Shown: positions 5,721-55,632 of the stretch, one piece after another
How the letters are laid out: each line of letters starts with the position of its first letter
How positions within the stretch are numbered: the stretch's first letter is position 1
Assembly: GCA_964384235.1 (NCBI GenBank)
Contig: CAYLJX010000002.1
Location: 114,660-178,659 of the forward strand
DNA from: an uncultured Bdellovibrionales bacterium
GTDB lineage: Bacteria; Patescibacteriota; Minisyncoccia; Moranbacterales; UBA1568
Reading direction: 5' to 3'
DNA: 64,000 nt
Notes under the pieces: generated by a model
What the model saw: the letters and a program-made list of their open reading frames with translations, nothing else
The model's database searches: none
Told to the model about the DNA's origin: nothing
Program-made: the position numbers and the translations under genes

Positions 5721-6710
5721 ATGTCAATCAGAGAAGAAAAAATCGAATTTTTTGAGAAGCACCTGCTCGACTTTTTCAAGAAGGCCGGGCGGGAACATTT
5801 GCCGTGGAGGAAGAAACAGATTACGGCGTACGAGGTGTGGGTGTCGGAGATCATGCTCCAGCAGACTCAAGTTGCGCGCGTCATCTCGTACTACGAGAAT
5901 TTTTTGAAGCGTTTCCCAACGGTCGAGGAGCTTGCGCAGGCGTCGTGGGAAGAATTTCTCCCGTACTACCAGGGTCTCGGCTACTATGCCCGCGGACGAA
6001 ACATGCTCAAGGCGGCACAGATGGTCGTAAAAGAGTACGATGGAAAATTTCCACGTGACAAGAAACTTCTCGAAAGCATTCCTGGTATCGGTCCCTACAC
6101 GGCCGCGGCCATCATGAGCTTCGCCTACGGTGACGACCATCTGGCGTGGGATACCAATCTTAAGCGGGTAACGGGCAGGTTCTTTTTTGGGAGCAAGGGT
6201 GCGCCGATAGATGAGGCAGAATGGGAAAACCGTCTGACGATAAAGAGGAAAACTCTCAACGCCGCGCTCATGGATTTCGGGAGCGCGATATGCGTCGCCC
6301 GGCCCAAGTGCGGAGCGTGTTCTCTTAAGGAGAAATGTATTTACTACAAGGAGAAAGGGAATCAAGAATCTAGAATCATGAATCAAGAATTAGGAAAAGA
6401 AAAAAATCCAAAAAAAAGAACAGATTGGAAAGAGGCGCGAGCAGTAGTTATCCTGCACGAGAATCATAAGAAGTACTACTCGTCAGTGAAAAAAGAATAC
6501 AAACCGTTCGTCCTTCCGAGCGGGTACAATACGCGCGCGGGTATCAAGAAATATTTCAAGGAGAAACATGGACTCGATCTCTCTGTTCGTCCGCCGCACA
6601 AAAAATCCGTCATCAAGGGAAAACCGACGCTCTTCGTGAACGCTCAGATTCTCCTTGGCGAGCCGAAATTCACTGTGTTCTCGAAAGAGATTTTGATGAG
6701 TGACGAGTAG
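5721..6710 (+). CDS. A/G-specific adenine DNA glycosylase (MutY-family HhH-GPD glycosylase) with a Lys-rich C-terminal extension
   Basis: LQQTQV, HhH-GPD region PGIGPYTAAAIMSFAYG, and 4Fe-4S cysteine cluster CxxxxxxCxxCxxxxxC. ATG at 5721 preferred over the GTG at 5685, which lies inside the repeat. Confidence 0.7.
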   Translation: MSIREEKIEFFEKHLLDFFKKAGREHLPWRKKQITAYEVWVSEIMLQQTQVARVISYYENFLKRFPTVEELAQASWEEFLPYYQGLGYYARGRNMLKAAQMVVKEYDGKFPRDKKLLESIPGIGPYTAAAIMSFAYGDDHLAWDTNLKRVTGRFFFGSKGAPIDEAEWENRLTIKRKTLNAALMDFGSAICVARPKCGACSLKEKCIYYKEKGNQESRIMNQELGKEKNPKKRTDWKEARAVVILHENHKKYYSSVKKEYKPFVLPSGYNTRAGIKKYFKEKHGLDLSVRPPHKKSVIKGKPTLFVNAQILLGEPKFTVFSKEILMSDE

Positions 6711-10584: not shown

Positions 10585-11400
10585 ATGCACCCTATGGATG
10601 CAAACGACGATAAGGGTAACTTGGGAGGGTACCTGTCACAACTGAAAAGATCGGTTTCAAAGCTGCTCGCACAATCGGGAAGAGACGTCTTCCTTTACGG
10701 CGTGGCGGCTTTTTTCGTTGGGACCGGAACATTGGGAAATTTGCCACCTATAGCCCTTTCCAAGGCTGATCAGGGTCAGGAAACCGCCTTAAAACAGGAC
10801 CAACCGGCGTCTTCGCTCAGTACGGAAGAAGAACTGTGTCTGTGGAAACGGGATCTGGCGTTCTTTTCCCGTCTGGGAGAAGAGGATCTTTACCGGCCGG
10901 AAACGGTCGATTGCAGCCAGGATACGGATCAGGAGGAAAAAGAAGGGGGAAACGCTCTTTCTTCGGAAGAGAAGGATGCGGCAAGTCTGATCGACGGTCT
11001 GGTCGCCGGCTATCCTATCGAGGCCATGACGGATTCGATCGCGAAGTATGACCGTGATATCGCCGGTCTCATCATCGGCATCGCCAAGAAGGAGAGCAAC
11101 TGGGGCAAGCGCGTGCCGCGAGCTTCAGACGGGAGCGACTGTTTCAACTATTGGGGGTACAAGGGTGCGGGGAGCCGCGGGATCGCCATGGGACACGGCT
11201 GTTTCGGCAGTCCCGAGGAAGCGGTCCAGGCCGTCGGGAACCGTCTGACGGAACTCGTCGCGAAACGAAACGCTGATAGCGATCCGAAGAACATGATCGT
11301 CTGGAAGTGCGGATCAAGCTGTGCCGGTCACAGTCCTGAGAGCGTCAAGAAATGGATCAGTGACGTGGAACAATACTATCGTCAGATCGCCAGGAATTGA
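10585..11400 (+). CDS. membrane-anchored hypothetical protein, paralog B of the upstream gene
   Basis: Same C-terminal domain. A 38-nt block atcgccaagaaggagagcaactggggcaagcgcgtgcc is identical in both genes. Confidence 0.55.
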   Translation: MHPMDANDDKGNLGGYLSQLKRSVSKLLAQSGRDVFLYGVAAFFVGTGTLGNLPPIALSKADQGQETALKQDQPASSLSTEEELCLWKRDLAFFSRLGEEDLYRPETVDCSQDTDQEEKEGGNALSSEEKDAASLIDGLVAGYPIEAMTDSIAKYDRDIAGLIIGIAKKESNWGKRVPRASDGSDCFNYWGYKGAGSRGIAMGHGCFGSPEEAVQAVGNRLTELVAKRNADSDPKNMIVWKCGSSCAGHSPESVKKWISDVEQYYRQIARN

Positions 11401-12636: not shown

Positions 12637-13644
12637 ATGCACCCAGATTGGAAATATCTCTTCAGGATTCTCTACTTTTCGGTATTGTCCGTGCTGTTCG
12701 TCGTGTTTGTGGTGTTCGCGTATTTCAACCTTTCCGGACCGGCACCGCGTGAGGATGCGAAACTTGGCGTCACGTTCTCATCGCGCTACGCCACCGACCT
12801 CGGTCTCGATTGGCACGAGACCTATCTCGCGCTTCTCGATGATATGGGCGTGAAAAAGCTCCGCATCCCGGTGTATTGGGATCTGGTGGAAAAGAATCCG
12901 GGCGAATATGACTATGCCGATGTCGATTGGCAGCTCGATGAGGCGGCGAAACGTCATGCCGATGTGATCCTTTCTATCGGTCAGCGGGTGCCGCGTTGGC
13001 CGGAATGCCATATTCCGCAGTGGGCCATGTCCGATACGGCCATCCGGCAGCAGGCGCTGCTTCGGCACCTGGAGAGAACCGTGGAGCGCTACAGAGACCG
13101 CGGCGAGATCGTCACGTGGCAGGTCGAGAACGAACCGTTCCTGACGTTCTTCGGCGAGTGTCCTCCGCTCCAAAAGGAATTCCTCGAACAGGAAGTGGCG
13201 CTGGTGAAAAATCTCGATACGCGACCGGTGCTCCTCACGGACAGCGGGGAATTGTCGCTGTGGTTCCGGGCGGCCAAGCGAGGCGACGTCTTCGGGACGA
13301 CCATGTACCGGCATATCTACAAGGACGGCATCGGATATTTCACCTATCCCGTGGGACCCAATTTTTTCCTGTTCAAGGAATGGCTGACGCGACTCCTCAC
13401 CGATCAGGAACATTTCCTCGTCATCGAGTTGCAGGCGGAACCGTGGGCCAACGGATGGGTAGGAACCCTGCCGCTTGAGGAGCAATTCCGGACGATGGAC
13501 GAGAAAAAACTTCAGGAGAATGTGGAGTACGCGAAGCGCGTCGGCTTCCCGGAGATCTATCTCTGGGGCGGGGAGTGGTGGTATTTTCTCAAGACAAAAA
13601 AAGACTATCCGGCCGTGTGGGAGACCGCGAAAGAACTGTTTTAG
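12637..13644 (+). CDS. membrane-anchored glycoside hydrolase, clan GH-A (GH42/GH35/GH5-like TIM barrel)
   Basis: N-terminal TM helix. WDLVEKNPGEYDY...DWQLDEA and a putative acid/base motif WQVENEP. ATG at 12637, downstream of the repeat element. Confidence 0.5.
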   Translation: MHPDWKYLFRILYFSVLSVLFVVFVVFAYFNLSGPAPREDAKLGVTFSSRYATDLGLDWHETYLALLDDMGVKKLRIPVYWDLVEKNPGEYDYADVDWQLDEAAKRHADVILSIGQRVPRWPECHIPQWAMSDTAIRQQALLRHLERTVERYRDRGEIVTWQVENEPFLTFFGECPPLQKEFLEQEVALVKNLDTRPVLLTDSGELSLWFRAAKRGDVFGTTMYRHIYKDGIGYFTYPVGPNFFLFKEWLTRLLTDQEHFLVIELQAEPWANGWVGTLPLEEQFRTMDEKKLQENVEYAKRVGFPEIYLWGGEWWYFLKTKKDYPAVWETAKELF

Positions 13645-15561: not shown

Positions 15562-16920
15562 ATGGTCACGGAGGCGTTCAACAGAGGCATCGAATTCACC
15601 AGGAAGAATCCGACGATTCTTTACTCGCTTTTTTTGATCGTCGCCATCACGGGGGCGCTCTTTTTCAACAGCTACTATTCGCTCCAGAAATTTCAGCTGA
15701 CCGCCGACGCCCTTCTCAAGAGCAAGGCGATCCTGGCTGAGAACGTTTTCCGGGTCGTCGGAGAGGATCTCTTCGCTCAAGTCTCCCGGTTGCAGGAAAA
15801 GCTCGATCGGGTGAAGGAGGAGAACGGCGATGTGACGGAGATCACCGTCTTCGTCCGGGAGTCGGAGAGCGCGTCGTTTCGGGTCGCGGCTTCCACCGAT
15901 CATGAGGGCGTAGGGGAGATGGCCGACGAGACGGCTTTGCCTTACCTCATCGCCTGGCAGGACGCCCGCGTCGTCTCGGCTTTTTTGACGAACGATGACG
16001 ATCGGCGGTACTGGAACGTGGTGAAAAAGGTGACGGATCTGGAAGGGCGGGCCTTGGGGTTGGTGCTGTTTCAGTTGTCCCTGGAAGAGCACGATGCCTT
16101 CGTCGAGAAGGCGATCGATCAGGTGTATCTGGTCGCGATCCTCTCTCTCCTCTTCGTACTCCTGCTTCTGGGAAACCACCTGCGTTTTTTCCGCTATGCC
16201 CTGCGGGCGGCCAAACTGGAAGAGGTGGACCGGATGAAAGACGACTTCATTTCCATGGCGAGCCATGAGCTGAAGACCCCGCTCACCGTGCTTCGCGGCT
16301 ACATCGACCTCCTCCGCAACCAGCCGGAATCGCCGACACCTGAAGCGAAAAAGGAAGTGAAAGGCTATCTGGAAAACATGGACGAATCCATCGGCCGCCT
16401 GAACGTCCTCGTGGAAGACATCCTCAATGTCTCCCGTCTGGAACAGAACCGTCTCCCGATCGTCCTGGAGACGCTCGACCTTTCTCCGATGCTCGGGAAG
16501 CTTTCGCATGAGTTCTCCCTGGTCGCAACGGGGAAATCGCTCGCTTTCGTCTATGAGCCGGTGCCGGTTTCTCCGGTATCGGCCGATCCGGAACGGGTCA
16601 AGCAGATACTCGTGAACCTCCTCGGGAACGCCGTCAAGTATACGATCAAGGGGAAGGTGGAAATGAGCGTCAAGGAAACGGACGAGGAAGTAGTGATCGT
16701 GGTGGCGGACACGGGACTCGGTATCTCTGCGCGGAATATGGAGCATCTGTTCTCGAAGTTCTATCGGGTGAAGACGGCGGATACGGAAAAGATTTCCGGA
16801 ACAGGTCTCGGACTCTGGATTTCCCGGGAGATTGCGCGTAAAATGGGAGGAGACATCACGGTCGAGAGCATCGAGGGCGTCGGGTCACATTTCAGCCTGC
16901 ATCTCAAGAAAAGTTCATAA
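15562..16920 (+). CDS. sensor histidine kinase (no response regulator found in this window)
   Basis: H-box MASHELKTPLTVLRGY. N, G1, G2 boxes: GNAVKYT, DTGLGI, GTGLGLWISREIARKMGG. Two N-terminal TM helices. Confidence 0.8.
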   Translation: MVTEAFNRGIEFTRKNPTILYSLFLIVAITGALFFNSYYSLQKFQLTADALLKSKAILAENVFRVVGEDLFAQVSRLQEKLDRVKEENGDVTEITVFVRESESASFRVAASTDHEGVGEMADETALPYLIAWQDARVVSAFLTNDDDRRYWNVVKKVTDLEGRALGLVLFQLSLEEHDAFVEKAIDQVYLVAILSLLFVLLLLGNHLRFFRYALRAAKLEEVDRMKDDFISMASHELKTPLTVLRGYIDLLRNQPESPTPEAKKEVKGYLENMDESIGRLNVLVEDILNVSRLEQNRLPIVLETLDLSPMLGKLSHEFSLVATGKSLAFVYEPVPVSPVSADPERVKQILVNLLGNAVKYTIKGKVEMSVKETDEEVVIVVADTGLGISARNMEHLFSKFYRVKTADTEKISGTGLGLWISREIARKMGGDITVESIEGVGSHFSLHLKKSS

Positions 16921-16965
16921 AGTCCATCAAGTTTGTAAAGTCCGTAAAGTTTTTTCAGGAAAGAA

Positions 16966-21230: not shown

Positions 21231-21345
21231 CAGTTAATCGGTTGAAGGGTTAACAAGTTCACAGGTTAGCAGATTTTTCGATAAAAAGTCAATTCTTGAA
21301 TCCTTACTTGTAACTTTTTAACCTGTTAACCGGGGAACTGGAATT
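21231..21345. repeat. GTTAAC-rich intergenic repeat (copy 2), between rpmI and rplT
   Basis: gttgaagggttaacaagttcacaggttagc...aactttttaacctgttaaccgggg. Confidence 0.55.
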
Positions 21346-22114: not shown

Positions 22115-22133
22115 TGTTCCGCGTATTAAAAAG

Positions 22134-22528
22134 TGGAGTTGATGGGAATCGCACCCATGTCCAGGCATGTTTTTCCAAAATAGTCTACAAGCTTAGTGTC
22201 GCTTGGCATGAAAGAGGAGGGTAGAAGCGGACGAAATCCCTCATCAGTCTCTTCTTCTGCAACAGGTCCTGAAAATGAAGAGAAGGAAGATTCTCAGGCT
22301 GCCTCGATGATATGGCACCGGATGACTCGTATCGAGAATAGGAGGTCCGATGGCTCACGCGATTAGGCGCGGGCAAAAGCGAAAGACGGAGCAAACGCCG
22401 AAGCGATCGCGGTCTTGGCCTTGGTGATGAAGTTTGCAGTTATCATCGTGGGAACGAGTTTTACGATCATGTTCCCGAGATCGGCTTGCGTATTTTGAAA
22501 GTACATCCTGTCGAGTCTAGACAACCCC
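22134..22528 (-). ncRNA. ssrA: tmRNA (SsrA)
   Basis: On the minus strand. 5' end GGGGUUGUCUAGACUCGACAGG (tRNA-like 5' half). 3' end ACAUGGGUGCGAUUCCCAUCAACUCCA: T-arm plus acceptor strand pairing with the 5' GGGGUUG, giving a G3:U70 pair. Internal candidate tag frame GCA AAC ... GCC TAA. Directly downstream of smpB on the same strand. Confidence 0.55.
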
Positions 22529-22707
22529 TTGGTCATTGCAATAGGCGTGTTGCCATTGTGATGACTGAGCGATAGTGTAGAATGCGGTTTTTCTTTTTGG
22601 ATTGCTCAAATTTTAAATTTCTAATTTCAAATTTCTAAACAAAACCGAATGACTGAATGTCTGAAACATTAAAAATTCGGACTTGATTCAAAATTCTGAA
22701 TTCAAAA

Positions 22708-23697: not shown

Positions 23698-23791
23698 TTC
23701 CTCTGGTGCTGGCTGTTTATCGCTGCCGCATACCCTCTCGTGGGCGTGCGGCAGTTTTCTTTTTGGCTTTTTTCGGCTACGATGGGAAAGT

Positions 23792-25414
23792 ATGAAGATT
23801 CTGATCGAGAAACAATTGAGAGAAGCGATACGGGCATTGCAGGAAACAGGGATACTTCCTGCTTTTGATGTTCCTGGAATCCGTGTGGAGCGGCCCAAGG
23901 ACGATCAGTTCGGGGAGTATACGACCAATGTCGCATTGATGATCTCGAAGCAGGCAGGAAAGAGCCCGAGGGAGATAGCGGAAAAAATCAGAGAACAGCT
24001 AACAGAGAACAGTGAGCAGAATACTCTTTTTGAGAAAGTGGAAGTCGCAGGGCCGGGACATCTGAATTTTTATCTGTCGCAGGAGGCGCTCACGAACGTC
24101 GTGCGGGAGGTTTTGGAAAAAGGAGGATCATTCGGTGATTCGAATATCGGCGTAGGGGAGAAAGTGAACAACGAATTTATTTCGGCCAATCCGACGGGAC
24201 CCTTGCATCTTGGCAATGGCCGTGGCGGATTTTATGCCGATTCACTCTCGCGCGTCTTGCGAAAGAGCGGCTATGACGTGACGAACGAATACTATATCAA
24301 CGACGCCGGCGAGCAGGTGATGAAACTGGGGCATAGTGTCTTAAAGGACAGCGAGGCAGTCTATGGCGGCGACTATATCGACGCGCTCAATGAACAGCTA
24401 ACAGCGAACAGTGAACAGAAAAACCTGAATGCGAAAGAAATTGGGGAGTGGGCGGCGGAGATCGTGATGGAGGAGATGGTCAAGAAGACACTCTCTGAAC
24501 AGATGGCTATCTCGTTTGATGTTTTCACGTCAGAGAAGAAGGATGTCGTGGAGAAAGGTTTCGTAGACAAGGCTATCGAGATTTTCAAAGAAAAAGGGCT
24601 AGCGTTCGAAGAAGAGGGGGCACTTTGGCTTCGTACCACCGAGTTCGGTGACGACAAGGACCGCGTGCTCGTGAAGCAAGACGGCTCTCGGACGTACTTC
24701 GCTTCCGACTGTGGATACATCTTGCAGAAAATAGAGCGTGACTTTACGAGACTCATCGAGACATGGGGCGCTGACCATCACGGCTATGTGGCGCGTTTCA
24801 AGGCAGCAGCACAGGCGCTCGGGTTTCAGGGGAAAATCGATTTCCTTCTTGTTCAGCTCGTGAAGCTCGTCAAGGACGGCGTCGAGGTGAGGATGAGCAA
24901 GCGTGCCGGCAACGTGGTGACGATCGACGAGCTCATCGAGACGGTCGGGCACGACGTGGCGCGGTTCTTTTTCCTTATGTACGCGCCGGAGACACATATG
25001 AACTTCGATCTCGGGCTCGCCGAGGAGCGCTCCGCCAAGAACCCGGTCTTCTACGTGCAGTATGCGCACGCGAGGCTCGCGAGTATTCTGCGCAAAGCCG
25101 AGGAGGAAGGATTCGTATCGGACGGCGCCGACCTCTCCCTTCTTATGCATCCCAAGGAGCGTGAACTCATGCGCGAGCTCCTCTTTTTTCCGGAACTCGT
25201 CGAGACAGTCTCGGAAGACTTTTCCGTGCACAAGCTGCCGCAGTATGCTATCCGTCTTGCCGACAAGCTCCATTCTTTCTATGATGAGTGTCGGGTGCTC
25301 GATGCCGAGAATCAGTCTCTCTCGGCGGCACGCCTCGAACTCATCCGTTCTGTCAAGATCGTCCTCGGTGAAACCCTCTCCCTCATGGGTATCGACGCCC
25401 CGGAGAGGATGTAA
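23792..25414 (+). CDS. argS: arginyl-tRNA synthetase
   Basis: ANPTGPLHLGNGRG (HIGH-class motif), class I ArgRS domain order, 540 aa. Confidence 0.9.
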   Translation: MKILIEKQLREAIRALQETGILPAFDVPGIRVERPKDDQFGEYTTNVALMISKQAGKSPREIAEKIREQLTENSEQNTLFEKVEVAGPGHLNFYLSQEALTNVVREVLEKGGSFGDSNIGVGEKVNNEFISANPTGPLHLGNGRGGFYADSLSRVLRKSGYDVTNEYYINDAGEQVMKLGHSVLKDSEAVYGGDYIDALNEQLTANSEQKNLNAKEIGEWAAEIVMEEMVKKTLSEQMAISFDVFTSEKKDVVEKGFVDKAIEIFKEKGLAFEEEGALWLRTTEFGDDKDRVLVKQDGSRTYFASDCGYILQKIERDFTRLIETWGADHHGYVARFKAAAQALGFQGKIDFLLVQLVKLVKDGVEVRMSKRAGNVVTIDELIETVGHDVARFFFLMYAPETHMNFDLGLAEERSAKNPVFYVQYAHARLASILRKAEEEGFVSDGADLSLLMHPKERELMRELLFFPELVETVSEDFSVHKLPQYAIRLADKLHSFYDECRVLDAENQSLSAARLELIRSVKIVLGETLSLMGIDAPERM

Positions 25415-25431
25415 AACAAAAAGTTTTTCTC

Positions 25432-25590
25432 ATGTTTTTTCTCCTTTCGACCGAACACAAGAAAAAATACAAGAAGAAGCGCGGGTTCGACGAAGACCTG
25501 CTCGGTTTCATCGTGAAGGCTGTCGGATCAGTCTCCTTGTTCGTCGTCGTGGCTGTCGGGTTGGATATCTACCGTCTGTTGCGCTGATTC
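25432..25590 (+). CDS. small tail-anchored membrane protein (52 aa), hypothetical
   Basis: ATG at about 25432. Lys-rich N-terminus and C-terminal TM helix GFIVKAVGSVSLFVVVAVGLDIY. Not in the ORF track (shorter than 60 aa). Confidence 0.25.
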
Positions 25591-25599
25591 TCTTTTCGT

Positions 25600-26169
25600 A
25601 TGGCAGAAAAAAACATCACGTTCTTTCTGGTGCGTCACGGCGAGGCGGAGCAGAACGTGTCCGGTATCGCGAGCTCGTGGCCGGAGACGCGCGAATTCCA
25701 TCTGACGGAAAAAGGTCGGAAGCAGATCGAAGCAGTGGCCGATCTTCTCTCCGGGAAACATATCGACAGGATCTTCTCGTCGCCGATCTGTCGGACGCGC
25801 GAGACGGCGGAAATGATCGCTGAAGCGACGGGTGCATCTGTCGAGTTCGATGAACGTCTGCGTGAGACAGGCCTCGGTATCTTCAATGGTCGGCCGGTCA
25901 GCGAATTCTTCGAAAAGTACTCTCCAGAAGCACGTATCAGTCCCGATCCGGCCGACGGCGTGGAGAGCTACATCGATATGCGCGCGCGCCTCACGCATTT
26001 CCTCGATGATATCAAGGAGAAATGTATCGGCCAGAGTGTCATCATCGTGTCGCATGGCGATCCGCTCGAGCAGCTCCATGGCATCCTCACGAACGAGGCT
26101 CCCGGCCGCTCGGCCACCGGCTGGTACGCCGAAAAGGGGAGTTGTACGGAAGTGACATGGAGATTCTAA
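25600..26169 (+). CDS. histidine phosphatase family protein (phosphoglycerate-mutase-like)
   Basis: LVRHGEAEQN catalytic RHG motif, second His region IVSHGD. Confidence 0.7.
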   Translation: MAEKNITFFLVRHGEAEQNVSGIASSWPETREFHLTEKGRKQIEAVADLLSGKHIDRIFSSPICRTRETAEMIAEATGASVEFDERLRETGLGIFNGRPVSEFFEKYSPEARISPDPADGVESYIDMRARLTHFLDDIKEKCIGQSVIIVSHGDPLEQLHGILTNEAPGRSATGWYAEKGSCTEVTWRF

Positions 26170-26642
26170 CCATCAAGATCCAAAAGAGTATGCTGTATTC
26201 CGAATACCGACAATTGTCTTCCGATGACGCATGTCATTTCTGTGACCCGGAGGACCGGGCGTTCGTCGAGAATGCGGACGCCTTCCTCACCTATGCCATC
26301 GCCCCGTATCATGAACATCACCTCCTTGTGATCCCCAAGCGGCACCGGGCGTCGTTTCTCGAGATGGAACGGGGGGAATTCGATCAGGTGTGGGACCTCA
26401 TCCGCAAGGGCGCGGCCATACTCCTCGAACTGGGATACGAGACCTACACCGTCATTGTCCGGGAAGGCAAGAACGCCGCCAAGAGCATGGAGCACCTGCA
26501 CTATCATCTCATTCCCAACAACCGCATCGGTGATCTCGACCATGCGGGACAAGGCCGATCCGTCATGGAGGCTTCGCAGATCGACCAGGTATCGCGAGAC
26601 GTCCGGGAAGCCATGGATCGGTTGAAATTCAACGGCATCTAA
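26157..26642 (+). CDS. HIT-family hydrolase
   Basis: Histidine triad HLHYHLIP. ATG at 26157, overlapping the upstream gene's end. Confidence 0.7.
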   Translation: MEILTIKIQKSMLYSEYRQLSSDDACHFCDPEDRAFVENADAFLTYAIAPYHEHHLLVIPKRHRASFLEMERGEFDQVWDLIRKGAAILLELGYETYTVIVREGKNAAKSMEHLHYHLIPNNRIGDLDHAGQGRSVMEASQIDQVSRDVREAMDRLKFNGI

Positions 26643-26659
26643 GGTTGCTTTTTCTTTTG

Positions 26660-26940
26660 GCGGGTGATACAGTGGCGGTACAATATTTGAAAGGCGATGA
26701 AGGGATCATCCTCCTGGAGCTCCAAGAAGAAAGCCTTTGCGGCGAGTAGAACTTGGCGGGCACGCCCGTAACAGCCGGAATGAAGGGTATTTTGTATTAT
26801 GTATTTTGTATTATGTATTCCTTATACATAATACTTGATACCAGATACTTCATACCGAACTGAGGTGGTACCACGCTCCGACTCCTTATCGGTCGTTCAG
26901 CGTCCTTAGCACAGAGCGTGTTAAGGATTTTTTGTTTTTA
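26660..26940 (+). promoter_or_regulatory. candidate T-box riboswitch leader (Ile-specific) with intrinsic terminator, upstream of ileS
   Basis: T-box core match AGGUGGUACCACGC at about 26863-26876 (consensus AGGGUGGNACCGCG). Candidate specifier AUC-A at about 26704-26711. Downstream terminator ccttagcac-agagc-gtgttaagg plus T-run at about 26904-26939. The motif 3' half cacgctc can pair with gagcgtg inside the terminator. Confidence 0.4.
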
Positions 26941-26945
26941 TAATT

Positions 26946-29900
26946 ATGTCATTCAAAAAAGTTCCGTCGCAGGTGAGTTTTCCGAAATTGGAGGAGGAGG
27001 TCCTCAAGTATTGGGAGGAGAACAAGATCTTCGAGAAGTCGGTGGAGAAAAATCCCGAGGACAAGACGTTCATTTTTTACGAAGGGCCGCCGACGGCTAA
27101 TGGCAAGCCGGGACTTCATCATGTCCTCGCACGCTCGTTCAAGGACATCATCCCGCGCTACAAGACGATGAAAGGTTATCGTGTCGAGCGCAAGGCCGGC
27201 TGGGACACGCACGGGTTGCCGGTGGAACTCCAGGTGGAAAAAGCACTCGGCCTCAGGAACAAACAGGACATCGAGAATATCGTGCCGGGCGATGCGCGGG
27301 CGAGTGTCATCGAGTTCAACAAGAAGTGCAAGGAATCCGTGTGGGAGTACCGCGACCTCTGGGAGAAGCTCACGCGGCGCATGGGTTATTGGGTCGATAT
27401 GGAACACCCGTACGTGACGTACGAGAACGAATACATCGAGTCGGTGTGGTGGCAGCTCGCGCAGGTCGCGGCACTGAAAAACGAGAAAGGGGAATCTTAT
27501 CTCTACAAGGGACACAAAGTCGTTCCGTACTGCTACCGCTGCGGAACAGCGCTCTCCTCGCACGAGGTGGCGCAGGGGTATCAGACTGTGAAGGATAATT
27601 CAGTGTATGTGAAATTCCAGTTAACAGCGAACAGCGAACAGAAAACGGAAAACAAGACATATCTTTTGGCATGGACCACTACGCCTTGGACTTTACCAGG
27701 AAACGCGGCTTTAGCTGTAAAAAAAGATGAAGTCAAATATATAACACTTGAAACTGAAGCTGATACGTCAAATTTAAAAAAAGGCGATCAAGTAGTCTTT
27801 GCTTTTACCCATGAGATATTAGGACGTGTTTTAGGTGATAATTTTAAGGAATTTCATAAGAGTAACCATGATTTATTGAATGCTGTTCCTGAGGCATACG
27901 AAACAGAAACCGGTGTGAGATATAAAGTTATAGGATTATGTGATGGGAATGAATTGTTAGGAAAACTATACGAACCTCTTTACGAAACCACAGGAAAAGA
28001 TGCGGAGAAATGTTACAGAGTGGTGGCGGGGGATTTCGTCACGACGACCGATGGTACGGGGATCGTGCACATCGCGCCGGCGTTCGGTGAGGATGATGCC
28101 AACGTCGGCAAGGAGAACGGTCTGCCGACGCTCCTGACTGTAGAGACGGACGGAACGCTCATGAAAGGTTTCGGTCTGCCGGGTGAGGGGATTCCGGTCA
28201 AGAAAAAGAACGACAAGAACCGCTATGCCGTGGACGATCTCATCATCGAGGACCTGAAACAGCGAGGACTGTTTTTCAATGAAGAAGTGTATGAGCATGA
28301 GTACCCGTTCTGCTGGCGTTGTGACACGCCGCTTATCTACTTCGCCAAGCCGTCGTGGTTCATCCGAATGGGTGAGCTTCGGGACGAACTCGTAAAGAAC
28401 AACGAGAGTATCACCTGGGTGCCGGAACATATCAAGGAAGGGCGCTTCGGCGAGTGGTTGCGCGGCGTGAAGGATTGGGCCATCTCACGTGAACGTTACT
28501 GGGGTACGCCGCTTCCCATTTGGGAATGTGACACGTGTGATACACGGAAAGTGATTTCTTCGACTGACGAACTGACGAAATTTTCCGGTAAGAAACTCGA
28601 AGATGTGCATAAGCCGTACATTGATGATGTGACGTGGTCATGCGAATGCGGTGGTACGATGAAACGGACGCCGGAAGTGCTCGACGTGTGGTTCGATTCC
28701 GGCGCGATGCCCTTGGCGCAGTTTACCTATCCGGAGCAGTCCGATGCGGTGGTCAAGGAAAAAATCGAATCCGGGAAATATTTCCCGGCGGACTATATCT
28801 GCGAGGCGATCGACCAGACGAGAGGGTGGTTCTATACGCTCCATGCCATCGCGACGCTTCTCAATAAGGCCGGGAAAGTGCCGGTAGGCAACGCCTACAA
28901 GAACGTCATCTGTCTCGGGCACGTGCTCGACGCGCAGGGCAAAAAGATGTCCAAGTCCAAGGGGAATGTCATCGATCCGTTCCAGATGTTTGAGGAATAC
29001 GGTGCCGATCCCTTGCGCTGGATGCTCTTCTCGATCAATCAGCCGGGACTACCGAAGCGTTTCGACGTGAAGGGGATGCGCGACGTGCAGAACCGCGTGT
29101 TCCGTATGCTCTGGAACTCGTACTCGTTCTTCATGACGTATGCGGCAATCGACGGTTGGCAGCCAAAAGCTACAAGCCACAAGCCACAAGCTACAAGCTT
29201 GCTCGACCGATGGATCGTTTCGGAATTACAGATGCTTATTAGGGGGGTCGATGGATCGCTTGCTGCTTATGATGTCTATACACCGACCAAGAAGATCGAG
29301 GTGTTCATTGATAATCTCTCCAATTGGTACATCCGTCGGAGCCGCGACCGCTTCTGGAAATCAGATGATGATACTGACAAGAACCAGGCATATCAGACGC
29401 TCTATGATGTGCTCGTGACGCTCTCGAAATTGATGGCCCCGTTCACGCCGTTCGTCGCCGAAGAAATCTATAGGGGATTAACAGGAAAAGAGTCCGTACA
29501 TCTCGCAGACTGGCCGGAGGCGGATGAAAAATTGATTGATGAAAACCTGAATGAAGAGATGCAACACGCCAGATTTATTGTGACGATGGGATTGAAAGTC
29601 CGCGCCGATGAAAAAATTAAAGTTCGTCAGCCACTTCAGAAAATAACAGCACGCCCGCTTGAGAAGGAACTGCAAGGAATTGTGTTGGATGAACTGAATG
29701 TGAAGGAATATGTCGAGCGTAAGGAAATGAACGAACTAGTTGAACTTGATCTGACTCCCAATGATGATCTTAGACTCGAGGGTGAGATGAATGAGATCAA
29801 CCGGGCAATCCAGGATGGCCGCAAGAAGGCGGAGTTTAATGTGGAGGACCGGATCGTACTCGGCTATCAGGGAAAGGAGGAAGTTTTTGAGAAGTTCGGT

Positions 29901-30020
29901 GATGAGATTGCAAAGAAAATCCTCGCGACGGAAGTAAAGAATGAAAATCTCACCGACGCCGAATACTCCGGAACGGTCGAAATCGAAGGAGAATCATTCT
30001 TGTTCTGGCTCAAACGGTAG
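26946..30020 (+). CDS. ileS: isoleucyl-tRNA synthetase
   Basis: PPTANGKPGLHHVLARSFKDI (HIGH-like region), KMSKSKGN, editing CP1 domain, 1024 aa. Confidence 0.9.
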   Translation: MSFKKVPSQVSFPKLEEEVLKYWEENKIFEKSVEKNPEDKTFIFYEGPPTANGKPGLHHVLARSFKDIIPRYKTMKGYRVERKAGWDTHGLPVELQVEKALGLRNKQDIENIVPGDARASVIEFNKKCKESVWEYRDLWEKLTRRMGYWVDMEHPYVTYENEYIESVWWQLAQVAALKNEKGESYLYKGHKVVPYCYRCGTALSSHEVAQGYQTVKDNSVYVKFQLTANSEQKTENKTYLLAWTTTPWTLPGNAALAVKKDEVKYITLETEADTSNLKKGDQVVFAFTHEILGRVLGDNFKEFHKSNHDLLNAVPEAYETETGVRYKVIGLCDGNELLGKLYEPLYETTGKDAEKCYRVVAGDFVTTTDGTGIVHIAPAFGEDDANVGKENGLPTLLTVETDGTLMKGFGLPGEGIPVKKKNDKNRYAVDDLIIEDLKQRGLFFNEEVYEHEYPFCWRCDTPLIYFAKPSWFIRMGELRDELVKNNESITWVPEHIKEGRFGEWLRGVKDWAISRERYWGTPLPIWECDTCDTRKVISSTDELTKFSGKKLEDVHKPYIDDVTWSCECGGTMKRTPEVLDVWFDSGAMPLAQFTYPEQSDAVVKEKIESGKYFPADYICEAIDQTRGWFYTLHAIATLLNKAGKVPVGNAYKNVICLGHVLDAQGKKMSKSKGNVIDPFQMFEEYGADPLRWMLFSINQPGLPKRFDVKGMRDVQNRVFRMLWNSYSFFMTYAAIDGWQPKATSHKPQATSLLDRWIVSELQMLIRGVDGSLAAYDVYTPTKKIEVFIDNLSNWYIRRSRDRFWKSDDDTDKNQAYQTLYDVLVTLSKLMAPFTPFVAEEIYRGLTGKESVHLADWPEADEKLIDENLNEEMQHARFIVTMGLKVRADEKIKVRQPLQKITARPLEKELQGIVLDELNVKEYVERKEMNELVELDLTPNDDLRLEGEMNEINRAIQDGRKKAEFNVEDRIVLGYQGKEEVFEKFGDEIAKKILATEVKNENLTDAEYSGTVEIEGESFLFWLKR

Positions 30021-34491: not shown

Positions 34492-35610
34492 ATGTGGGAA
34501 GAACAAGGAAGAACAGGAACCAAGCGTTACGGAATGTTGAAAACGAGGGGAGGAGTGATACCCACTCCTTTTTTCATGCCGGATGCGACGAGGGCGTCGG
34601 TGCGGGGACTTTCCAAGGACGATCTGAACACGGTCGGCGTATGGCCGATGGTGGTGAATACGTACCATCTCATGCTTCAGCCGGGCGTTGAATTGATCAA
34701 ACAAGCGGGAGGCACGCATCGTTTCATGAACTCTGACGGACCGCTCCTCTCTGATTCCGGCGGGTACCAGGTCTACTCGCTCATTCACAAGAATCCGGAA
34801 CTGGGAAAGATCACCGAAGAGGGGGCGGAGTTTCGCTCGCCTCTTGATGGTCGCAAGCATCTCCTGACGCCGGAGCGTTCCATCGGGATCCAGTTCGATC
34901 TCGGCGTCGACATGATGGTCTGTCTCGATGACCCGCGCCCCAATGATGCGCCACGGGAAGAGATCGTGGCCGCGGTGGACCGTACGATCCGCTGGGCGAA
35001 GCGGTGCAAGGAAGAGTACGACAGACAAGTGGTCGCGCGCGGAATGAATGATGAGGCAAGACCGCTCCTCTTCGGTGTGGTACAGGGCGGGATGCTCGTG
35101 GAAGAACGGAAGCGCTGTGCCGAGGGGCTGGTCGCGATCGGTTTCGACGGGTACGGTTTCGGTGGTCGGCATGTGGACGGTGACGGCCGATTTCTCGAGG
35201 AGATCGTCAGGGAGACCGCGTCGTTCATCCCGGAAGACAAACCGCGTTTCGCGCTCGGGGTCGGGACGCCTCAGGATATCGTGCGCTGCCATGCGCTCGG
35301 ATGGGACATGTTTGACTGCGTCATCCCCACCCGTGAAGGAAGACACGGCCGTTTGTTCGTGTTTAACCCACAAGCTACCAGCTACCAGCTACAAGCTGAT
35401 TTCTACGAAACGATCAATATCACGAACGAACAGTACAAGGATGACTTCGCGCCGGTGGATGCAGCATGCGATTGTCTCCTGTGTACGAAATACACCAAAG
35501 CGTATCTCAAACATCTTTTCAAAGTAGCTGACCCGCTCGCCGGCCGTCTCGCTTCGATGCACAACTTGCGCTTCTATATGAAGCTGATGGAAAAACTCCG
35601 GGAGGAGTAA
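34492..35610 (+). CDS. tgt: queuine tRNA-ribosyltransferase
   Basis: LGVGTPQDIVRCHALGWDMFDCVIPTREGRHG and C-terminal Zn site CDCLLC...H. Confidence 0.85.
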   Translation: MWEEQGRTGTKRYGMLKTRGGVIPTPFFMPDATRASVRGLSKDDLNTVGVWPMVVNTYHLMLQPGVELIKQAGGTHRFMNSDGPLLSDSGGYQVYSLIHKNPELGKITEEGAEFRSPLDGRKHLLTPERSIGIQFDLGVDMMVCLDDPRPNDAPREEIVAAVDRTIRWAKRCKEEYDRQVVARGMNDEARPLLFGVVQGGMLVEERKRCAEGLVAIGFDGYGFGGRHVDGDGRFLEEIVRETASFIPEDKPRFALGVGTPQDIVRCHALGWDMFDCVIPTREGRHGRLFVFNPQATSYQLQADFYETINITNEQYKDDFAPVDAACDCLLCTKYTKAYLKHLFKVADPLAGRLASMHNLRFYMKLMEKLREE

Positions 35611-53193: not shown

Positions 53194-55632
53194 ATGTCCA
53201 AGTCGTACAACCCCAAGTCCATCGAGGGAAAATGGCAGAAAACATGGGAGAAACAAGGTATCTATCGGCAATACAAGCGGTCGAAAAAGTTCTACGTGCT
53301 CGATATGTTTCCCTATCCGTCGGGCGCAGGGCTCCATGTCGGCCATCCCAAGGGTTACATCGCGACGGACGTGGTAGCACGAATGAAACAACTGCAGGGC
53401 TACGGCGTGCTCCATCCGATGGGATGGGATGCGTTCGGATTGCCGGCGGAGCAGTTCGCCATCAAGAACAAGGTCCATCCGGAAATCGCCGTGAGAAAGA
53501 ACGTCGCGACGTTCAAGAAACAGCTCGCGAAGATCGGTTTCACATACGACTGGGAGCGCGAGATCAACACGACCGACCCGGAGTACTACCGGTGGACGCA
53601 GTGGATCTTTCTCCAACTCTGGAAGAAAGGACTGGCCTACGAGTCATACGATCCGATCAACTGGTGTCCGTCGTGCCAGACGGGACTCGCGAACGAGGAT
53701 CTGGAGCAGGGGAAGTGCGAGCGCTGTGCCAGTGTCGTCGAGAAGAAACCGATGCGACAGTGGGTGCTCGCGATGACCAGGTACGCTGACCGGCTGCTCA
53801 AGGACCTGGATACGCAGAAACTCGAGTGGAGCGAATCGATCAAGGAACAGCAGCGCAACTGGATCGGACGGAGCGAAGGGATGCTTTTTACGTCGCCGAT
53901 CAAGGATAGTGACCTGAAGATCCAGACATTCAGTGCTCATTTTGAAGCATTTCGTGCCGACACATTCGTAGTGATTGCCCCTGATCATCCGATGCTTCCG
54001 AAGCTGCTTGATGGCGTAAAGGACAAGGAAAAAATCCTTCAAGTCTGTTCCGAGATGATCAGGAAACGCGAAGCGGCAGGATATGAGAATCAGAAGGAGA
54101 TCGAAGGGGTATTTACCGGACGACACACGGTGGATCCGGTCGGAAACGGAGAGCTTCCTATCTGGGTAGCGAGCTATGCTTTGGCTGAATATGGTACGGG
54201 TATCGTGAAGTGCTCAGCACACGATGAGCGTGATTTCGCTTTCGCGAAGAAATACGGGATCCGATTGAAACCGGTATTGTTTCCGGAAGATCTGATAGAA
54301 AGGAAAAAAGTCGAGAATCTGGAATATTGCTACAGTGATATGTCGCAGGGGGTTCTGACGGAGCCGGTGGAGTTCAATGGGAAAAAATCAGGCGAGTCCC
54401 GGCAGGAGATTATAGGGTATCTTGCGAAGAATAAGCTTGCCGCAAAGAAAGTCTCCTACAAGATGCGTGACTGGACGTTCTCGCGGCAGCGATACTGGGG
54501 CGAGCCGATTCCGCTCATTTATTGTGAGAAGTGCGGAGTCGTGCCGGTGCCGGAAAAGGATCTACCGGTGCTCCTTCCGAAGGTGAAATCGTATGAGCCG
54601 ACAGGGACGGGAGAATCGCCGCTTGCCAACATCACCAAGTGGGTGAATGTACGGTGTCCGAAGTGCAAGGGCAAGGCTAAGCGAGAAACGAATACCATGC
54701 CGCAGTGGGCGGGGTCCTGCTGGTACTACCTGCGCTACATCGATCCCAAGAGCCGGAAAGCGCTCGTCGACAAGAAGTTAGAGAAGAAGATGATGCCGGT
54801 CGACGTCTATGTCGGCGGGACGGAGCATGCCACGAGGCACCTCCTCTATGCGCGTTTTTGGCACAAATTCCTCTATGATATCAAGGCGGTTTCCGGCAAG
54901 GAGCCTTTCAAGAAGCTCGTTAATCAGGGACTCATCCTTGCTTCCGACGGGCGCAAGATGTCTAAGCGCTGGGGGAATGTCATCAATCCTGACGATATGA
55001 TCGATCAGTTCGGCGCGGACGCATTCCGACTTTATGAGATGTTCATGGGACCGTTCACACAATCGATCGCGTGGAATACGGACGGTGTGGTGGGAACACG
55101 CAGATTTCTGGAGAAGGTGTGGAAACTTCGGGATCGAATATCGAATATCGAATATCGAATATCGAATAAAGATACGGAAACCCTCCTTCACAAGACTATC
55201 AAGAGTGTTACCGAAGATATTGAGGACTTCAAATTCAATACCGCGGTCAGCAGTCTGATGATCTTGGTGAATGCCCTGGAAAAAGAAACCAATATTTCAC
55301 ATTCTACATTCAATATTCTTCTTATCCTTCTCTCTCCGTTTGCGCCGCATATCGCGGAGGAACTCTGGTATGAAATGGGGAACAAGAAGTCCATCTTTCT
55401 TGCCGAGTGGCCGAAGTGGGATAAGCGAAAAATCGTCGCCGAGACGGTGAAGATCGCCGTGCAGGTAAATGGCAAGGTGCGTGCGACGGTCGAGGTGGAA
55501 AGCGGAGCGACAGAAGAGGTAGTGAAAGCGCTCGCGCTCGCCGATACGAACGTCCAAGCGCACGTGGCCGGCAAAGAAATCCGCAAAGCGATCTATGTCC
55601 CCGGGAGAATACTGAATCTGGTGGTTATGTGA
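53194..55632 (+). CDS. leuS: leucyl-tRNA synthetase
   Basis: FPYPSGAGLHVGHPKGY (HIGH), KMSKRWGN, CP1 editing domain, 812 aa. Confidence 0.9.
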   Translation: MSKSYNPKSIEGKWQKTWEKQGIYRQYKRSKKFYVLDMFPYPSGAGLHVGHPKGYIATDVVARMKQLQGYGVLHPMGWDAFGLPAEQFAIKNKVHPEIAVRKNVATFKKQLAKIGFTYDWEREINTTDPEYYRWTQWIFLQLWKKGLAYESYDPINWCPSCQTGLANEDLEQGKCERCASVVEKKPMRQWVLAMTRYADRLLKDLDTQKLEWSESIKEQQRNWIGRSEGMLFTSPIKDSDLKIQTFSAHFEAFRADTFVVIAPDHPMLPKLLDGVKDKEKILQVCSEMIRKREAAGYENQKEIEGVFTGRHTVDPVGNGELPIWVASYALAEYGTGIVKCSAHDERDFAFAKKYGIRLKPVLFPEDLIERKKVENLEYCYSDMSQGVLTEPVEFNGKKSGESRQEIIGYLAKNKLAAKKVSYKMRDWTFSRQRYWGEPIPLIYCEKCGVVPVPEKDLPVLLPKVKSYEPTGTGESPLANITKWVNVRCPKCKGKAKRETNTMPQWAGSCWYYLRYIDPKSRKALVDKKLEKKMMPVDVYVGGTEHATRHLLYARFWHKFLYDIKAVSGKEPFKKLVNQGLILASDGRKMSKRWGNVINPDDMIDQFGADAFRLYEMFMGPFTQSIAWNTDGVVGTRRFLEKVWKLRDRISNIEYRISNKDTETLLHKTIKSVTEDIEDFKFNTAVSSLMILVNALEKETNISHSTFNILLILLSPFAPHIAEELWYEMGNKKSIFLAEWPKWDKRKIVAETVKIAVQVNGKVRATVEVESGATEEVVKALALADTNVQAHVAGKEIRKAIYVPGRILNLVVM

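What the first reader, a model, noticed from the sequence alone, without database searches (positions are those of the whole stretch)
23992..24426. Near-identical ~30-nt segments inserted in frame in argS (twice) and ileS, derived from the GTTAAC repeat vocabulary
Three segments share more than 80 % nucleotide identity across two different essential genes: argS 23992-24023 gaacagctaacagagaacagtgagcagaa, argS 24393-24426 gaacagctaacagcgaacagtgaacagaaaaacc, and ileS about 27617-27648 ccagttaacagcgaacagcgaacagaaaacgg. They encode QLT(A/E)NSEQ(K/N). Nucleotide-level identity across unrelated proteins points to a sequence element rather than protein homology. The cagttaacag and gaacag units are those of the intergenic GTTAAC repeats. 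This parallels the in-frame insertion of palindromic elements known from Rickettsia (RPEs).
Basis: partly seen in the sequence, partly recalled or inferred. Interest (0 to 1): 0.7.

Follow-up and report, generated by a model that had tools for sequence, protein, structure and literature searches.

The report
In-frame heptamer repeat arrays in tRNA synthetases
Three near-identical 26-base segments in the arginyl- and isoleucyl-tRNA synthetase genes of a Moranbacteria (CPR) genome are short tandem arrays of one 7-base unit (AACAGNN) read in frame in variable loops: a real DNA-level repeat of an already described kind, not a Rickettsia-type palindromic insertion.

Summary
Three + strand copies of CAGYTAACAGMGAACAGYGARCAGAA lie at 23996, 24395 (argS) and 27618 (ileS), 85-92% identical, with 0 expected by chance. 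All are in frame and encode QLT(E/A)NSEQ.

Each copy is a 4-6 unit tandem array of the heptamer AACAGNN. The window, from a Candidatus Moranbacteria genome, holds 19 period-7 arrays against 0 in shuffles. Seven are in frame, in argS, ileS, leuS, tgt and an HhH-GPD glycosylase gene.

The shared feature is DNA, not peptide. The arrays use this genome's rare codons (CTA/TTA, ACA, AGY).

- The arrays are not palindromic.
- They are not built from the 8-nt GTTAAC intergenic repeats.
- The two argS arrays are old. The site-1 array is orthologous in all nine relatives with DNA, with ACA and AAC invariant.
- Only the ileS copy is lineage-specific, and there it replaces a native hairpin loop rather than being a simple insertion.

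The same CAGxTAA/CAGxGAA arrays occur in cyanobacteria and other phyla, sometimes in frame.

Best reading: heptanucleotide simple-sequence arrays tolerated in flexible loops. The nucleotide-level maintenance of the pattern is unexplained.

The parts
23792..25414 (+). argS (arginyl-tRNA synthetase, 540 aa), host of two arrays
   Evidence: ORF. PDB ArgRS hits down to E=1e-78. 100% match to an NCBI/Logan protein, and relatives are named Moranbacteria ArgRS.
23987..24021 (+). Array c1, argS site 1: ATCAGAG AACAGCT AACAGAG AACAGTG AGCAGAA, encoding I-R-E-Q-L-T-E-N-S-E-Q-N (aa 66-77)
   Evidence: TRF period 7. Core match. Orthologous 7-periodic array in 9 of 9 relatives with DNA. Lies at the end of helix 59-72 plus turn 74-78, in a pLDDT dip of 67.
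24393..24420 (+). Array c2, argS site 2: AACAGCT AACAGCG AACAGTG AACAGAA, encoding E-Q-L-T-A-N-S-E-Q-K (aa 201-210)
   Evidence: End of helix 194-204 plus loop 205-213, pLDDT 71. The site is hypervariable among 120 ArgRS.
26946..30020 (+). ileS (isoleucyl-tRNA synthetase, 1024 aa), host of two arrays
   Evidence: ORF. PDB IleRS hits. Moranbacteria IleRS relatives.
27616..27657 (+). Array c3, ileS site 1: TCCAGTT AACAGCG AACAGCG AACAGAA AACGGAA AACAAGA, encoding Q-L-T-A-N-S-E-Q-K-T-E-N-K (aa 225-237)
   Evidence: Hairpin loop just before WTTTPWTLPGN at the entry to the CP1 editing domain. Absent from 4 syntenic orthologs and from the nearest IleRS relatives.
29161..29200 (+). Second in-frame heptamer array in ileS (AGCCACA/AGCTACA, about 5.4 units), encoding QPKATSHKPQATS (aa 739-752)
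   Evidence: (D17). The four syntenic orthologs with DNA have non-periodic sequence here. This site carries 7-aa-periodic peptides in many Moranbacteria IleRS.
35368..35398 (+). In-frame heptamer array in tgt (ACAAGCT/ACCAGCT), encoding PQATSYQLQAD; same unit family as 29161-29200
   Evidence: The loop is 13 aa longer than in solved Tgt structures. Other lineages carry different heptamer arrays at this site.
55131..55172 (+). Perfect (ATCGAAT)x5.1 in-frame array in leuS, encoding RDRISNIEYRISNKD
   Evidence: TRF 100% match.. Lies in a variable loop of the LeuRS anticodon-binding region.
6359..6390 (+). In-frame (GAATCAA-type) array in an HhH-GPD glycosylase gene, encoding GNQESRIMNQEL
   Evidence: Pfam HhH-GPD on the same gene in L214.
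26784..26858 (.). Example of the intergenic form: (GTATTnT)5 facing (AnnATAC)5, a hairpin with periodic stems, upstream of ileS
   Evidence: Fold -26.1 kcal/mol, z = -6.7.

Best explanation
The three segments are short tandem arrays (4-6 units) of one heptanucleotide, AACAGNN (the same array read as CAGNNAA). They belong to a genome-wide and clade-wide population of period-7 simple-sequence arrays in Moranbacteria.

Inferred origin: such arrays arise and are reshaped by strand slippage or template switching in a 7-nt register. Inside genes, only some versions survive:
- those in the one stop-free phase (CAG as a codon, giving Q-L-T-x-N-S-E-Q);
- those whose net length keeps the frame;
- those that fall in flexible, length-tolerant loops, where the hydrophilic peptide acts as a neutral spacer.

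Shown history: the argS site-1 array is inherited, being orthologous in all nine relatives with DNA. The site-2 array is of the same type in some relatives, while other relatives carry different heptamer units there. The ileS array is a recent, lineage-specific replacement of a native hairpin loop.

Inferred: the ileS copy was most likely copied from, or homogenised with, the argS site-2 array 3.2 kb upstream. The two are 24/26 identical over the core (26/28 over the extended block) and share a 9/9 identical peptide.

Shown but unexplained: the nucleotide pattern, including rare codons, is maintained over deep divergence. This could be concerted evolution or selection on DNA or RNA.
For: Period 7 is the only enriched period: 19 arrays against 0 in shuffles, with other periods at most 2. 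The same holds in relatives' loci.

All three copies are AACAGNN arrays, and no other such array occurs in 64 kb. Seven in-frame arrays sit in five housekeeping genes.

The arrays use rare codons and have fewer mismatches than their peptides predict. The joint chance of [CT]TA + ACA + AGY is about 1.3e-3 per copy, calculated from the table.

At site 1 the pattern is CAR-nTA-ACA-nnn-AAC in 9 of 9 orthologs. ACA and AAC are invariant in the 8 non-chimeric orthologs. Only 13 of 210 invariant-residue columns keep a single codon (hypergeometric P about 0.004). ACA makes up only 11-31% of Thr codons in those genomes.

The hot spots carry different heptamer units in other lineages: AAGGCAA x4, AATCAAA, AACGAAC x4, GACGACT, GAATATG x3, CAATATT x4. 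Residue identity at a spacing of 7 residues along the peptide is raised at three of the four hot spots (0.108-0.115 against a background of 0.062-0.068).

The sites are local confidence dips at helix ends and loops in a pLDDT-90 model, and their length varies among orthologs.

The same CAGxTAA/CAGxGAA arrays gave more than 120 hits across cyanobacteria, Bacteroidota, Verrucomicrobiota and other groups. Some are in frame in proteins that look like RNase R (QLTVNSEQ) and DnaG primase (QVTGNREQ); those two identities are my reading of the translations, not a family search.

Precedents in the literature:
- Heptamers are the most abundant long SSR class in bacteria (PMC4679880, PMC4692102).
- Geobacter metallireducens has a four-heptamer element at 49 inter- and intragenic sites, sometimes more than one per gene (PMC2700814).
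Against: - No unit-number polymorphism was seen in the few independent assemblies available. That is unlike a typical SSR, though 3-5 imperfect units in essential genes should be stable.
- Net length differences from orthologs are not multiples of 21 nt (+5, +5/6, +6 or -3, +2 aa). Simple three-unit slippage alone therefore does not explain the arrays' origin.
- Invariant rare codons over about 30% protein divergence fit a purely neutral passenger poorly.
- The same array family at the same IleRS site in lineages that are not nearest relatives (P0140, P0147, P0221) needs recurrent gain, loss or recombination.
- The slippage step itself was not observed.
Confidence: 0.6

Rival explanations
1. 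Functional cis-element. The heptamer arrays, both in genes and in intergenic hairpins, are recognition sites on DNA or RNA for a factor that binds one heptamer per subunit (for example an OB-fold or cold-shock-type protein), or they act as pause or recombination signals. On this view selection maintains them at the nucleotide level, and the encoded peptide is a by-product.
For: Rare codons are kept in all three copies. ACA and AAC are invariant across orthologs at site 1, although synonymous sites elsewhere are saturated. An intergenic (AATTTCN)n array near smpB recurs in the window, L205 and L206. The intergenic arrays form strong periodic hairpins. The heptamer-binding idea appears in PMC4679880.
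Against: Unit sequences differ widely between arrays and between lineages at the same site, so no single recognition motif exists. L003 has no strong array in 16 kb, and many orthologs lack arrays at the hot spots. No candidate factor was identified.
Confidence: 0.2
2. Miniature mobile element (RPE- or MITE-like). A discrete 26-40-nt element transposes or is copied into genes in frame.
For: Near-identical copies sit in two unrelated genes. The ileS copy is lineage-specific. The ACAAGCY arrays in ileS and tgt also share a unit family. Genuine palindromic elements are inserted in frame at the same hot spots in other Moranbacteria, one of them about 700 nt from a Y1 transposase gene.
Against: The copies show no inverted repeat or hairpin, and no defined ends: similarity stops at the array. 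Only three copies occur in 64 kb, all within 3.7 kb. The argS site-1 copy is vertically inherited. The same array sequence arises in unrelated phyla. No match to the palindromic element occurs in the window beyond noise.
Confidence: 0.12
3. Peptide-level convergence. QLTxNSEQ is a selected protein motif shared by class I synthetases, for example a docking or solubility tag, and the DNA similarity is secondary.
For: The peptide is identical in 9 of 9 residues between argS site 2 and ileS. Q[LI]TxNxxQ recurs in many ArgRS and some IleRS.
Against: Codon choice is the opposite of the genome's preference and follows the heptamer. Many orthologs lack the motif or carry unrelated arrays at the same sites. 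The sites have low model confidence. The same DNA array is mostly intergenic in other phyla.
Confidence: 0.05

Closest known systems
Four-heptanucleotide elements of Geobacter metallireducens (GGGACCG x4; PMC2700814)
   Same: [quoted passage not shown] Function unknown.
   Different: The Geobacter unit is GC-rich and was proposed as a regulatory RNA. It forms one dominant family of 49 copies. Here many A-rich unit families coexist, the copies sit in essential synthetase genes, and orthologous arrays persist across a clade.
Cyanobacterial tandem heptanucleotide repeats (STRR of Calothrix/Nostoc, cited in PMC4692102) and the CAGTTAA/CAGTGAA arrays found here in Rivularia, Calothrix and others
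   Same: Period 7 and tandem. The unit vocabulary is literally the same (CAGxTAA/CAGxGAA). From my own memory, STRR3 is CAACAGT; I did not verify that in a paper.
   Different: The cyanobacterial arrays are mostly longer and intergenic. Here the arrays have 4-6 units, are imperfect, and lie in frame in housekeeping genes of a small CPR genome.
TAACTGA direct repeats of marine Beggiatoaceae, cyanobacteria and Bacteroidetes (PMC4679880)
   Same: Heptamer direct repeats of 2-6 copies with a patchy phylogenetic spread. The reverse complement, CAGTTAT, is one base from CAGTTAA. Stop codons restrict which strand and phase can be coding.
   Different: TAACTGA sets lie mostly upstream of start codons and are proposed to regulate translation. 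Here the arrays are internal to genes and are translated.
Rickettsia palindromic elements (RPE; own knowledge, Ogata et al. 2000)
   Same: Repeat DNA translated in frame within essential proteins, at positions away from the catalytic core.
   Different: RPEs are 100-150 bp, palindromic, dispersed and mobile. These segments are 28-42 nt direct heptamer arrays with no hairpin. True RPE-like insertions do occur at these hot spots in other Moranbacteria.
NeuO heptanucleotide VNTR of E. coli K1 (PMC13001214)
   Same: Heptanucleotide repeats inside a coding region. The frame is kept only when the copy number is a multiple of three.
   Different: The NeuO tract is long, perfect and phase-variable, and sits at the 5' end of an accessory gene. 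Here the arrays are short, imperfect and stable, in essential genes.
Borg tandem repeats that create disordered protein regions (PMC9879509)
   Same: Nucleotide tandem repeats that arise in ORFs and add flexible, hydrophilic peptide segments.
   Different: I recall that Borg in-ORF repeat units are multiples of 3 nt and that the elements are archaeal and extrachromosomal; I did not check this in the paper. Here the unit is 7 nt, so the peptide repeats every 7 residues.

Membership tests
Heptanucleotide simple-sequence (STRR/LSSR-type) arrays | Head-to-tail tandem copies (3 or more) of a 7-nt unit | tested here: met
   TRF period 7 at all three sites. (AACAGNN)3 matches only there. Lag-7 scan.
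Heptanucleotide simple-sequence (STRR/LSSR-type) arrays | Part of a genome-wide excess of period-7 arrays, mostly intergenic | tested here: met
   19 arrays against 0 in shuffles in 64 kb, with other periods at most 2. Period 7 only in L205, L206 and L207.
Heptanucleotide simple-sequence (STRR/LSSR-type) arrays | Copy-number variation between strains | tested here: inconclusive
   No variation in the few same-species assemblies. Between species the arrays differ in unit number and unit type.
Heptanucleotide simple-sequence (STRR/LSSR-type) arrays | Unit vocabulary shared with described heptamer repeats | tested here: met
   The pattern hit more than 120 CAGxTAA/CAGxGAA arrays, mainly in cyanobacteria.
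Rickettsia palindromic elements (RPE) | Element of about 100-150 bp | tested here: not met
   The shared block is 26-28 nt and whole arrays are 28-42 nt.
Rickettsia palindromic elements (RPE) | Palindromic, able to form a stable hairpin | tested here: not met
   Fold z-scores +0.65, +0.07 and -1.0. No inverted copy on the minus strand.
Rickettsia palindromic elements (RPE) | Many dispersed copies per genome | tested here: inconclusive
   Three copies in 64 kb, all within 3.7 kb.
Rickettsia palindromic elements (RPE) | In-frame presence in conserved proteins as a lineage-specific addition | tested here: inconclusive
   All three are in frame. The ileS copy is lineage-specific but is a replacement. 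The argS site-1 copy is ancestral in the subclade.
Phase-variable contingency locus (NeuO-type heptamer VNTR) | Long perfect tract with variable copy number that switches an accessory gene on and off | tested here: not met
   The arrays have 4-6 imperfect units in argS and ileS, which I take to be single-copy and essential (copy number not tested). No copy-number variation was seen.
Diversity-generating retroelement target (VR) | Adenine-specific differences from a template repeat, with a nearby reverse transcriptase | tested here: not met
   Differences between copies are A/C, G/A, T/A, C/T and T/C, so they are not adenine-specific. The window was not scanned for a reverse transcriptase.
DNA uptake sequence (USS/DUS) | A single short motif at about 1 per kb throughout the genome | tested here: not met
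   The AACAGNN array occurs at only 3 loci in 64 kb. Other arrays use unrelated units.

The most novel reading that the evidence does not exclude
Moranbacteria may maintain heptamer arrays as nucleotide-level elements inside essential genes. On this reading, specific loop-coding hot spots in aaRS, Tgt and other housekeeping genes are repeatedly rewritten with 7-nt arrays or small palindromes. The rewriting would be done by a dedicated or strongly biased mechanism: templated copying between arrays, or a heptamer-register polymerase or recombination activity. The TAACA...AACA core would be kept by selection for a DNA- or RNA-level function.
Probability: 0.2. Interest if true: 0.75.

Novelty: new member of a known kind. 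Interest (0 to 1): 0.45.

Why it matters
Part of the sequence of essential enzymes in a CPR bacterium is set by a DNA repeat process rather than by selection on the protein. Identical 9-residue peptides in ArgRS and IleRS arise from one heptamer array read in the only stop-free phase.

Practical consequences:
- Such segments can mislead homology searches, alignments and motif discovery in Patescibacteria proteins.
- The hot spots identify loops in ArgRS, IleRS, LeuRS and Tgt that tolerate arbitrary insertions.

Conceptual interest: rare codons persist in an orthologous array across deep divergence, and the same array family recurs at the same sites. This makes the long-standing question of why bacteria favour 7-nt repeats testable in a small genome.

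Tried and rejected
1. Genome-wide census of the core. It was informative about how general the array is, but it did not show the source genome.
2. Ortholog DNA through the search for related loci on metagenomes. The back-translated patterns were too generic, so only ArgRS of 37-53% identity came back. I did not use them.
3. L001/L002 looked like an 83% relative with a different array. They are in fact chimeric scaffolds: about 75% identical to the window before position 24950, 100% identical after it, with runs of N. I used only their 5' part, as one more distant ortholog.
4. Extending beyond the window with end-of-window proteins returned short contigs that lie almost entirely inside the window. 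They served only to check array stability.
5. Naming the source genome returned no name or accession.
6. Rfam found only a tmRNA and a tRNA-Leu.
7. Ideas considered and rejected:
   - DGR target: the differences between copies are not adenine-specific.
   - DNA uptake sequence: there is no single dense motif.
   - Phase variation: the genes are essential and the arrays are short and imperfect.
   - Derivation from the 8-nt GTTAAC arrays.
   - An antisense partner array: none on the minus strand.
   - The palindromic element of other Moranbacteria being present in this window.
8. A neighbour-joining tree timed out. I replaced it with UPGMA clustering, which is too crude to count gains and losses.
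Full report
**1. Observation**

The 26-nt core CAGCTAACAGCGAACAGTGAACAGAA matches at three places on the + strand:
- 23996-24021, 2 mismatches
- 24395-24420, 0 mismatches
- 27618-27643, 2 mismatches

There are no further matches with up to 3 mismatches, and none in 100 dinucleotide-preserving shuffles. The first two copies lie in a 540-aa ORF, 23792-25414. It hits solved ArgRS structures and Moranbacteria ArgRS. The third lies in a 1024-aa ORF, 26946-30020, that is IleRS.

All three are in frame and give EQLTENSEQN, EQLTANSEQK and FQLTANSEQK.

Independent assemblies carry the same sequences:
- P0002 has the same ArgRS arrays.
- The 3' parts of L001 and L002 are 100% identical to the window across the ileS copy.

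**2. What the segments are**

Each segment is a tandem array of a heptamer:
- c1: ATCAGAG AACAGCT AACAGAG AACAGTG AGCAGAA
- c2: AACAGCT AACAGCG AACAGTG AACAGAA
- c3: TCCAGTT AACAGCG AACAGCG AACAGAA AACGGAA AACAAGA

Period 7 is a property of the genome. With a threshold of 15 of 18 self-matches, the window has 19 lag-7 arrays against 0 in shuffles, and every other period from 2 to 13 has at most 2.

Most arrays are intergenic. There they occur as facing pairs that fold into hairpins with periodic stems. An example is 26784-26858, with a z-score of -6.7.

Seven arrays are inside genes and in frame:
- the three above
- ileS 29161-29200 (QPKATSHKPQATS)
- tgt 35368-35398 (PQATSYQLQAD, same unit family as the ileS array just above)
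- leuS 55131-55172 (perfect ATCGAAT x5.1)
- an HhH-GPD glycosylase gene, 6359-6390

**3. The shared feature is DNA, not peptide**

Codon usage from 14 genes of the window shows that the arrays use minority codons:

| Residue | Codon(s) in the arrays | Share of that residue's codons |
|---|---|---|
| Leu | CTA / TTA | 2% / 3% |
| Thr | ACA | 11% |
| Ser | AGT / AGC | 7% / 16% |

The chance of [CT]TA + ACA + AGY in one copy is about 1.3e-3, calculated from the table.

Given their peptides, c1 and c2 differ at 3 positions against 7.1 expected (P=0.012). c2 and c3 differ at 2 against 5.6 expected (P=0.04).

The common reading phase is forced by stop codons. In c1 and c2 both other frames hit TAA or TGA. 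In every long-ORF example from other phyla, the phase with CAG as a codon was the one used.

**4. History, from orthologs**

The organism is a Candidatus Moranbacteria (Patescibacteria/CPR). I aligned 120 ArgRS of 62-100% identity and obtained DNA for nine syntenic or partial orthologs.

*ArgRS site 1.* All nine orthologs carry an orthologous 7-periodic array, CAR-nTA-ACA-nnn-AAC-ARn-nAn-CAR. L207 has a nearly perfect (CAGCGAA)x3.
- Thr is ACA and Asn is AAC in every ortholog.
- Among the 8 non-chimeric sequences, only 13 of 210 invariant-residue columns keep a single codon. The chance that both array columns are among them is about 0.004.
- ACA is only 11-31% of Thr codons in those genomes.

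*ArgRS site 2.* The window, L003, L205, L208 and L210 have CAGnnAA-type arrays. Other lineages have different units:
- L207: (AATCAAA)n
- the foreign part of L001: (AAGGCAA)x4
- L212: (AACGAAC)x4
- L211: (GACGACT)n

*Length classes among the 120 ArgRS*:

| Site | Length (aa): number of sequences |
|---|---|
| Site 1 | 11: 36; 16-18: 65; 28-37: 8 |
| Site 2 | 15-16: 70; 19-21: 30; longer, up to 51 |

States at the two sites are patchy and recombine across a similarity clustering.

*IleRS site 1.* The array is missing in four syntenic orthologs, which have EL[IV]DEPGT. It is also missing in the 14 closest IleRS (70-81% identity), which have a K.K.GQKIGDFTTD loop that is 3 aa longer. Here the array replaced a native hairpin. 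More distant IleRS (P0140, P0147, P0221) carry QLTDNNEQLT-type peptides at the same site.

*IleRS site 2 and the Tgt loop.* Both are also hot spots with lineage-specific arrays. Residue identity at a spacing of 7 residues is raised at three of the four hot spots (0.108-0.115 against a background of 0.062-0.068).

**5. Structural context**

An AlphaFold2 model of the ArgRS (mean pLDDT 90.1) places the sites as follows:
- Site 1 lies at the end of helix 59-72 and the turn 74-78. The 10-residue block there has pLDDT 67.
- Site 2 lies at the end of helix 194-204 and the loop 205-213, with pLDDT 71.

These are the two local confidence dips apart from residues 361-380.

- The IleRS site is the hairpin loop before WTTTPWTLPGN, and its length varies among solved IleRS.
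- The Tgt array lengthens a turn by 13 aa compared with solved Tgt.
- The LeuRS array lies in a variable loop.

**6. Generality**

The hits were mainly Rivularia, Calothrix and other cyanobacteria. Bacteroidales, Oscillospiraceae, Verrucomicrobiota, Acidobacteriota, Gemmatimonadota and Alcanivorax were also represented.

All hits are CAGxTAA/CAGxGAA heptamer arrays and most are intergenic. A few are in frame, in proteins that I read from their translations as an RNase R-like protein (QLTVNSEQ) and a DnaG primase (QVTGNREQ). The 'core' is therefore a widespread array vocabulary, not a Moranbacteria-specific element.

**7.

- The in-gene arrays have no hairpin potential.
- The 8-nt GTTAAC intergenic arrays contain no GAACAG and no CAG[CT]TAACAG.
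- The RPE analogy holds only in outcome: repeat DNA translated inside essential proteins.

True palindromic in-frame insertions do exist at the same hot spots in other Moranbacteria:
- L211 argS site 1 is a 65-nt GTCATTCCGAG...CTCGGGATGAC hairpin that encodes LCHSE..IPRQARDD. A Y1 transposase gene lies about 700 nt upstream.
- An 'APTPQSRGLDSSPQAGEQ' element appears in both ArgRS and IleRS of different lineages.

**8. Mechanism**

Shown:
- a heptamer-array nature
- forced phase
- location in loops
- old argS arrays and a new ileS array
- retention of the nucleotide pattern

Inferred:
- Origin by slippage or template switching in a 7-nt register, as proposed for bacterial heptamer SSRs (PMC4679880).
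- Intragenomic copying or homogenisation between the argS site-2 array and the ileS array. The two are 3.2 kb apart, 24/26 identical over the core (26/28 over the extended block), and share an identical 9-residue peptide.

Unexplained:
- why the TAACA..AACA core is conserved
- why net length changes are not multiples of 21 nt
- why the same family recurs at the same IleRS site

**9. Verdict**

This is a genuine nucleotide-level repeat in essential genes, and a member of the known class of heptanucleotide tandem arrays. The closest described case is the four-heptamer inter- and intragenic element of Geobacter metallireducens (PMC2700814). Here the kind is documented in a CPR lineage, with hot-spot behaviour. 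Interest is moderate.

Noticed in passing
window 5630-5700, 21233-21281, 45245-45310, 47750-47816 (period 8); 26784-26858, 42560-42655, 48751-48814, 57112-57221 (period 7): Intergenic spacers between co-directional genes are largely filled by hairpins. Each arm is a short-period array with a conserved 4-5-mer (GTAT or GTTAA) plus 2-3 variable bases, which gives stems with regular internal loops. There is no Rfam match.
   Followed up: partly
window 22606-22638; L205 8037-8067; L206 8564-8596: An (AATTTCN)n heptamer array lies beside smpB, between tmRNA and smpB in the window. It recurs with nearly the same units in lineages whose ArgRS is only about 66-70% identical. This suggests a conserved non-coding array.
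   Followed up: partly
L211 9760-9835 (argS site 1 of P0013); the Y1_Tnp gene is at L211 8415-8879: A 65-nt GC-rich palindrome (GTCATTCCGAG...CTCGGGATGAC) is translated in frame inside ArgRS as LCHSESSEAESRNLEIPRQARDD. A Y1 (IS200/RAYT-type) transposase gene lies about 700 nt upstream of argS. Similar 'CHSREGGNP..DPRVKPEDD' and 'PTPQSRG.DSSP.AGEQ' peptides sit in IleRS hot spots of other Moranbacteria (P0153, P0161, P0179, P0193).
   Followed up: partly
window 55131-55172: A perfect (ATCGAAT)x5.1 array lies in frame in leuS (RDRISNIEYRISNKD). It is the most recent-looking array in the window. Five units are not a multiple of three, so its birth cannot be a single clean three-unit expansion from nothing.
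   Followed up: partly
L001 and L002 (ENA scaffolds), against window 23755-28978: These scaffolds are chimeric or recombinant. They are about 75% identical to the window up to position 24950 and 100% identical after it, with a run of N at about 28100 and divergence again after about 28970. L214 shows a similar mosaic (99.8% and 92% segments).
   Followed up: yes
window 10109-10167 / 11060-11118 and 10339-10412 / 11296-11369: Two adjacent ORFs (9454-10443 and 10585-11400) share stretches of 86-93% nucleotide identity. This looks like a tandem paralog pair.
   Followed up: no
window 12686-12718, 16910-16952, 43120-43151, 48431-48468: Weaker period-9 or period-18 tandem arrays (TGTTCGTGG, AAAGTCCAT, AAGCTAGTG, GAAATGGGA), some apparently inside ORFs.
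   Followed up: no
window 22131-22528 (-) and 58934-59017 (+): A tmRNA gene (Rfam 106.7 bits) that ARAGORN did not report, and a tRNA-Leu(CAA).
   Followed up: no
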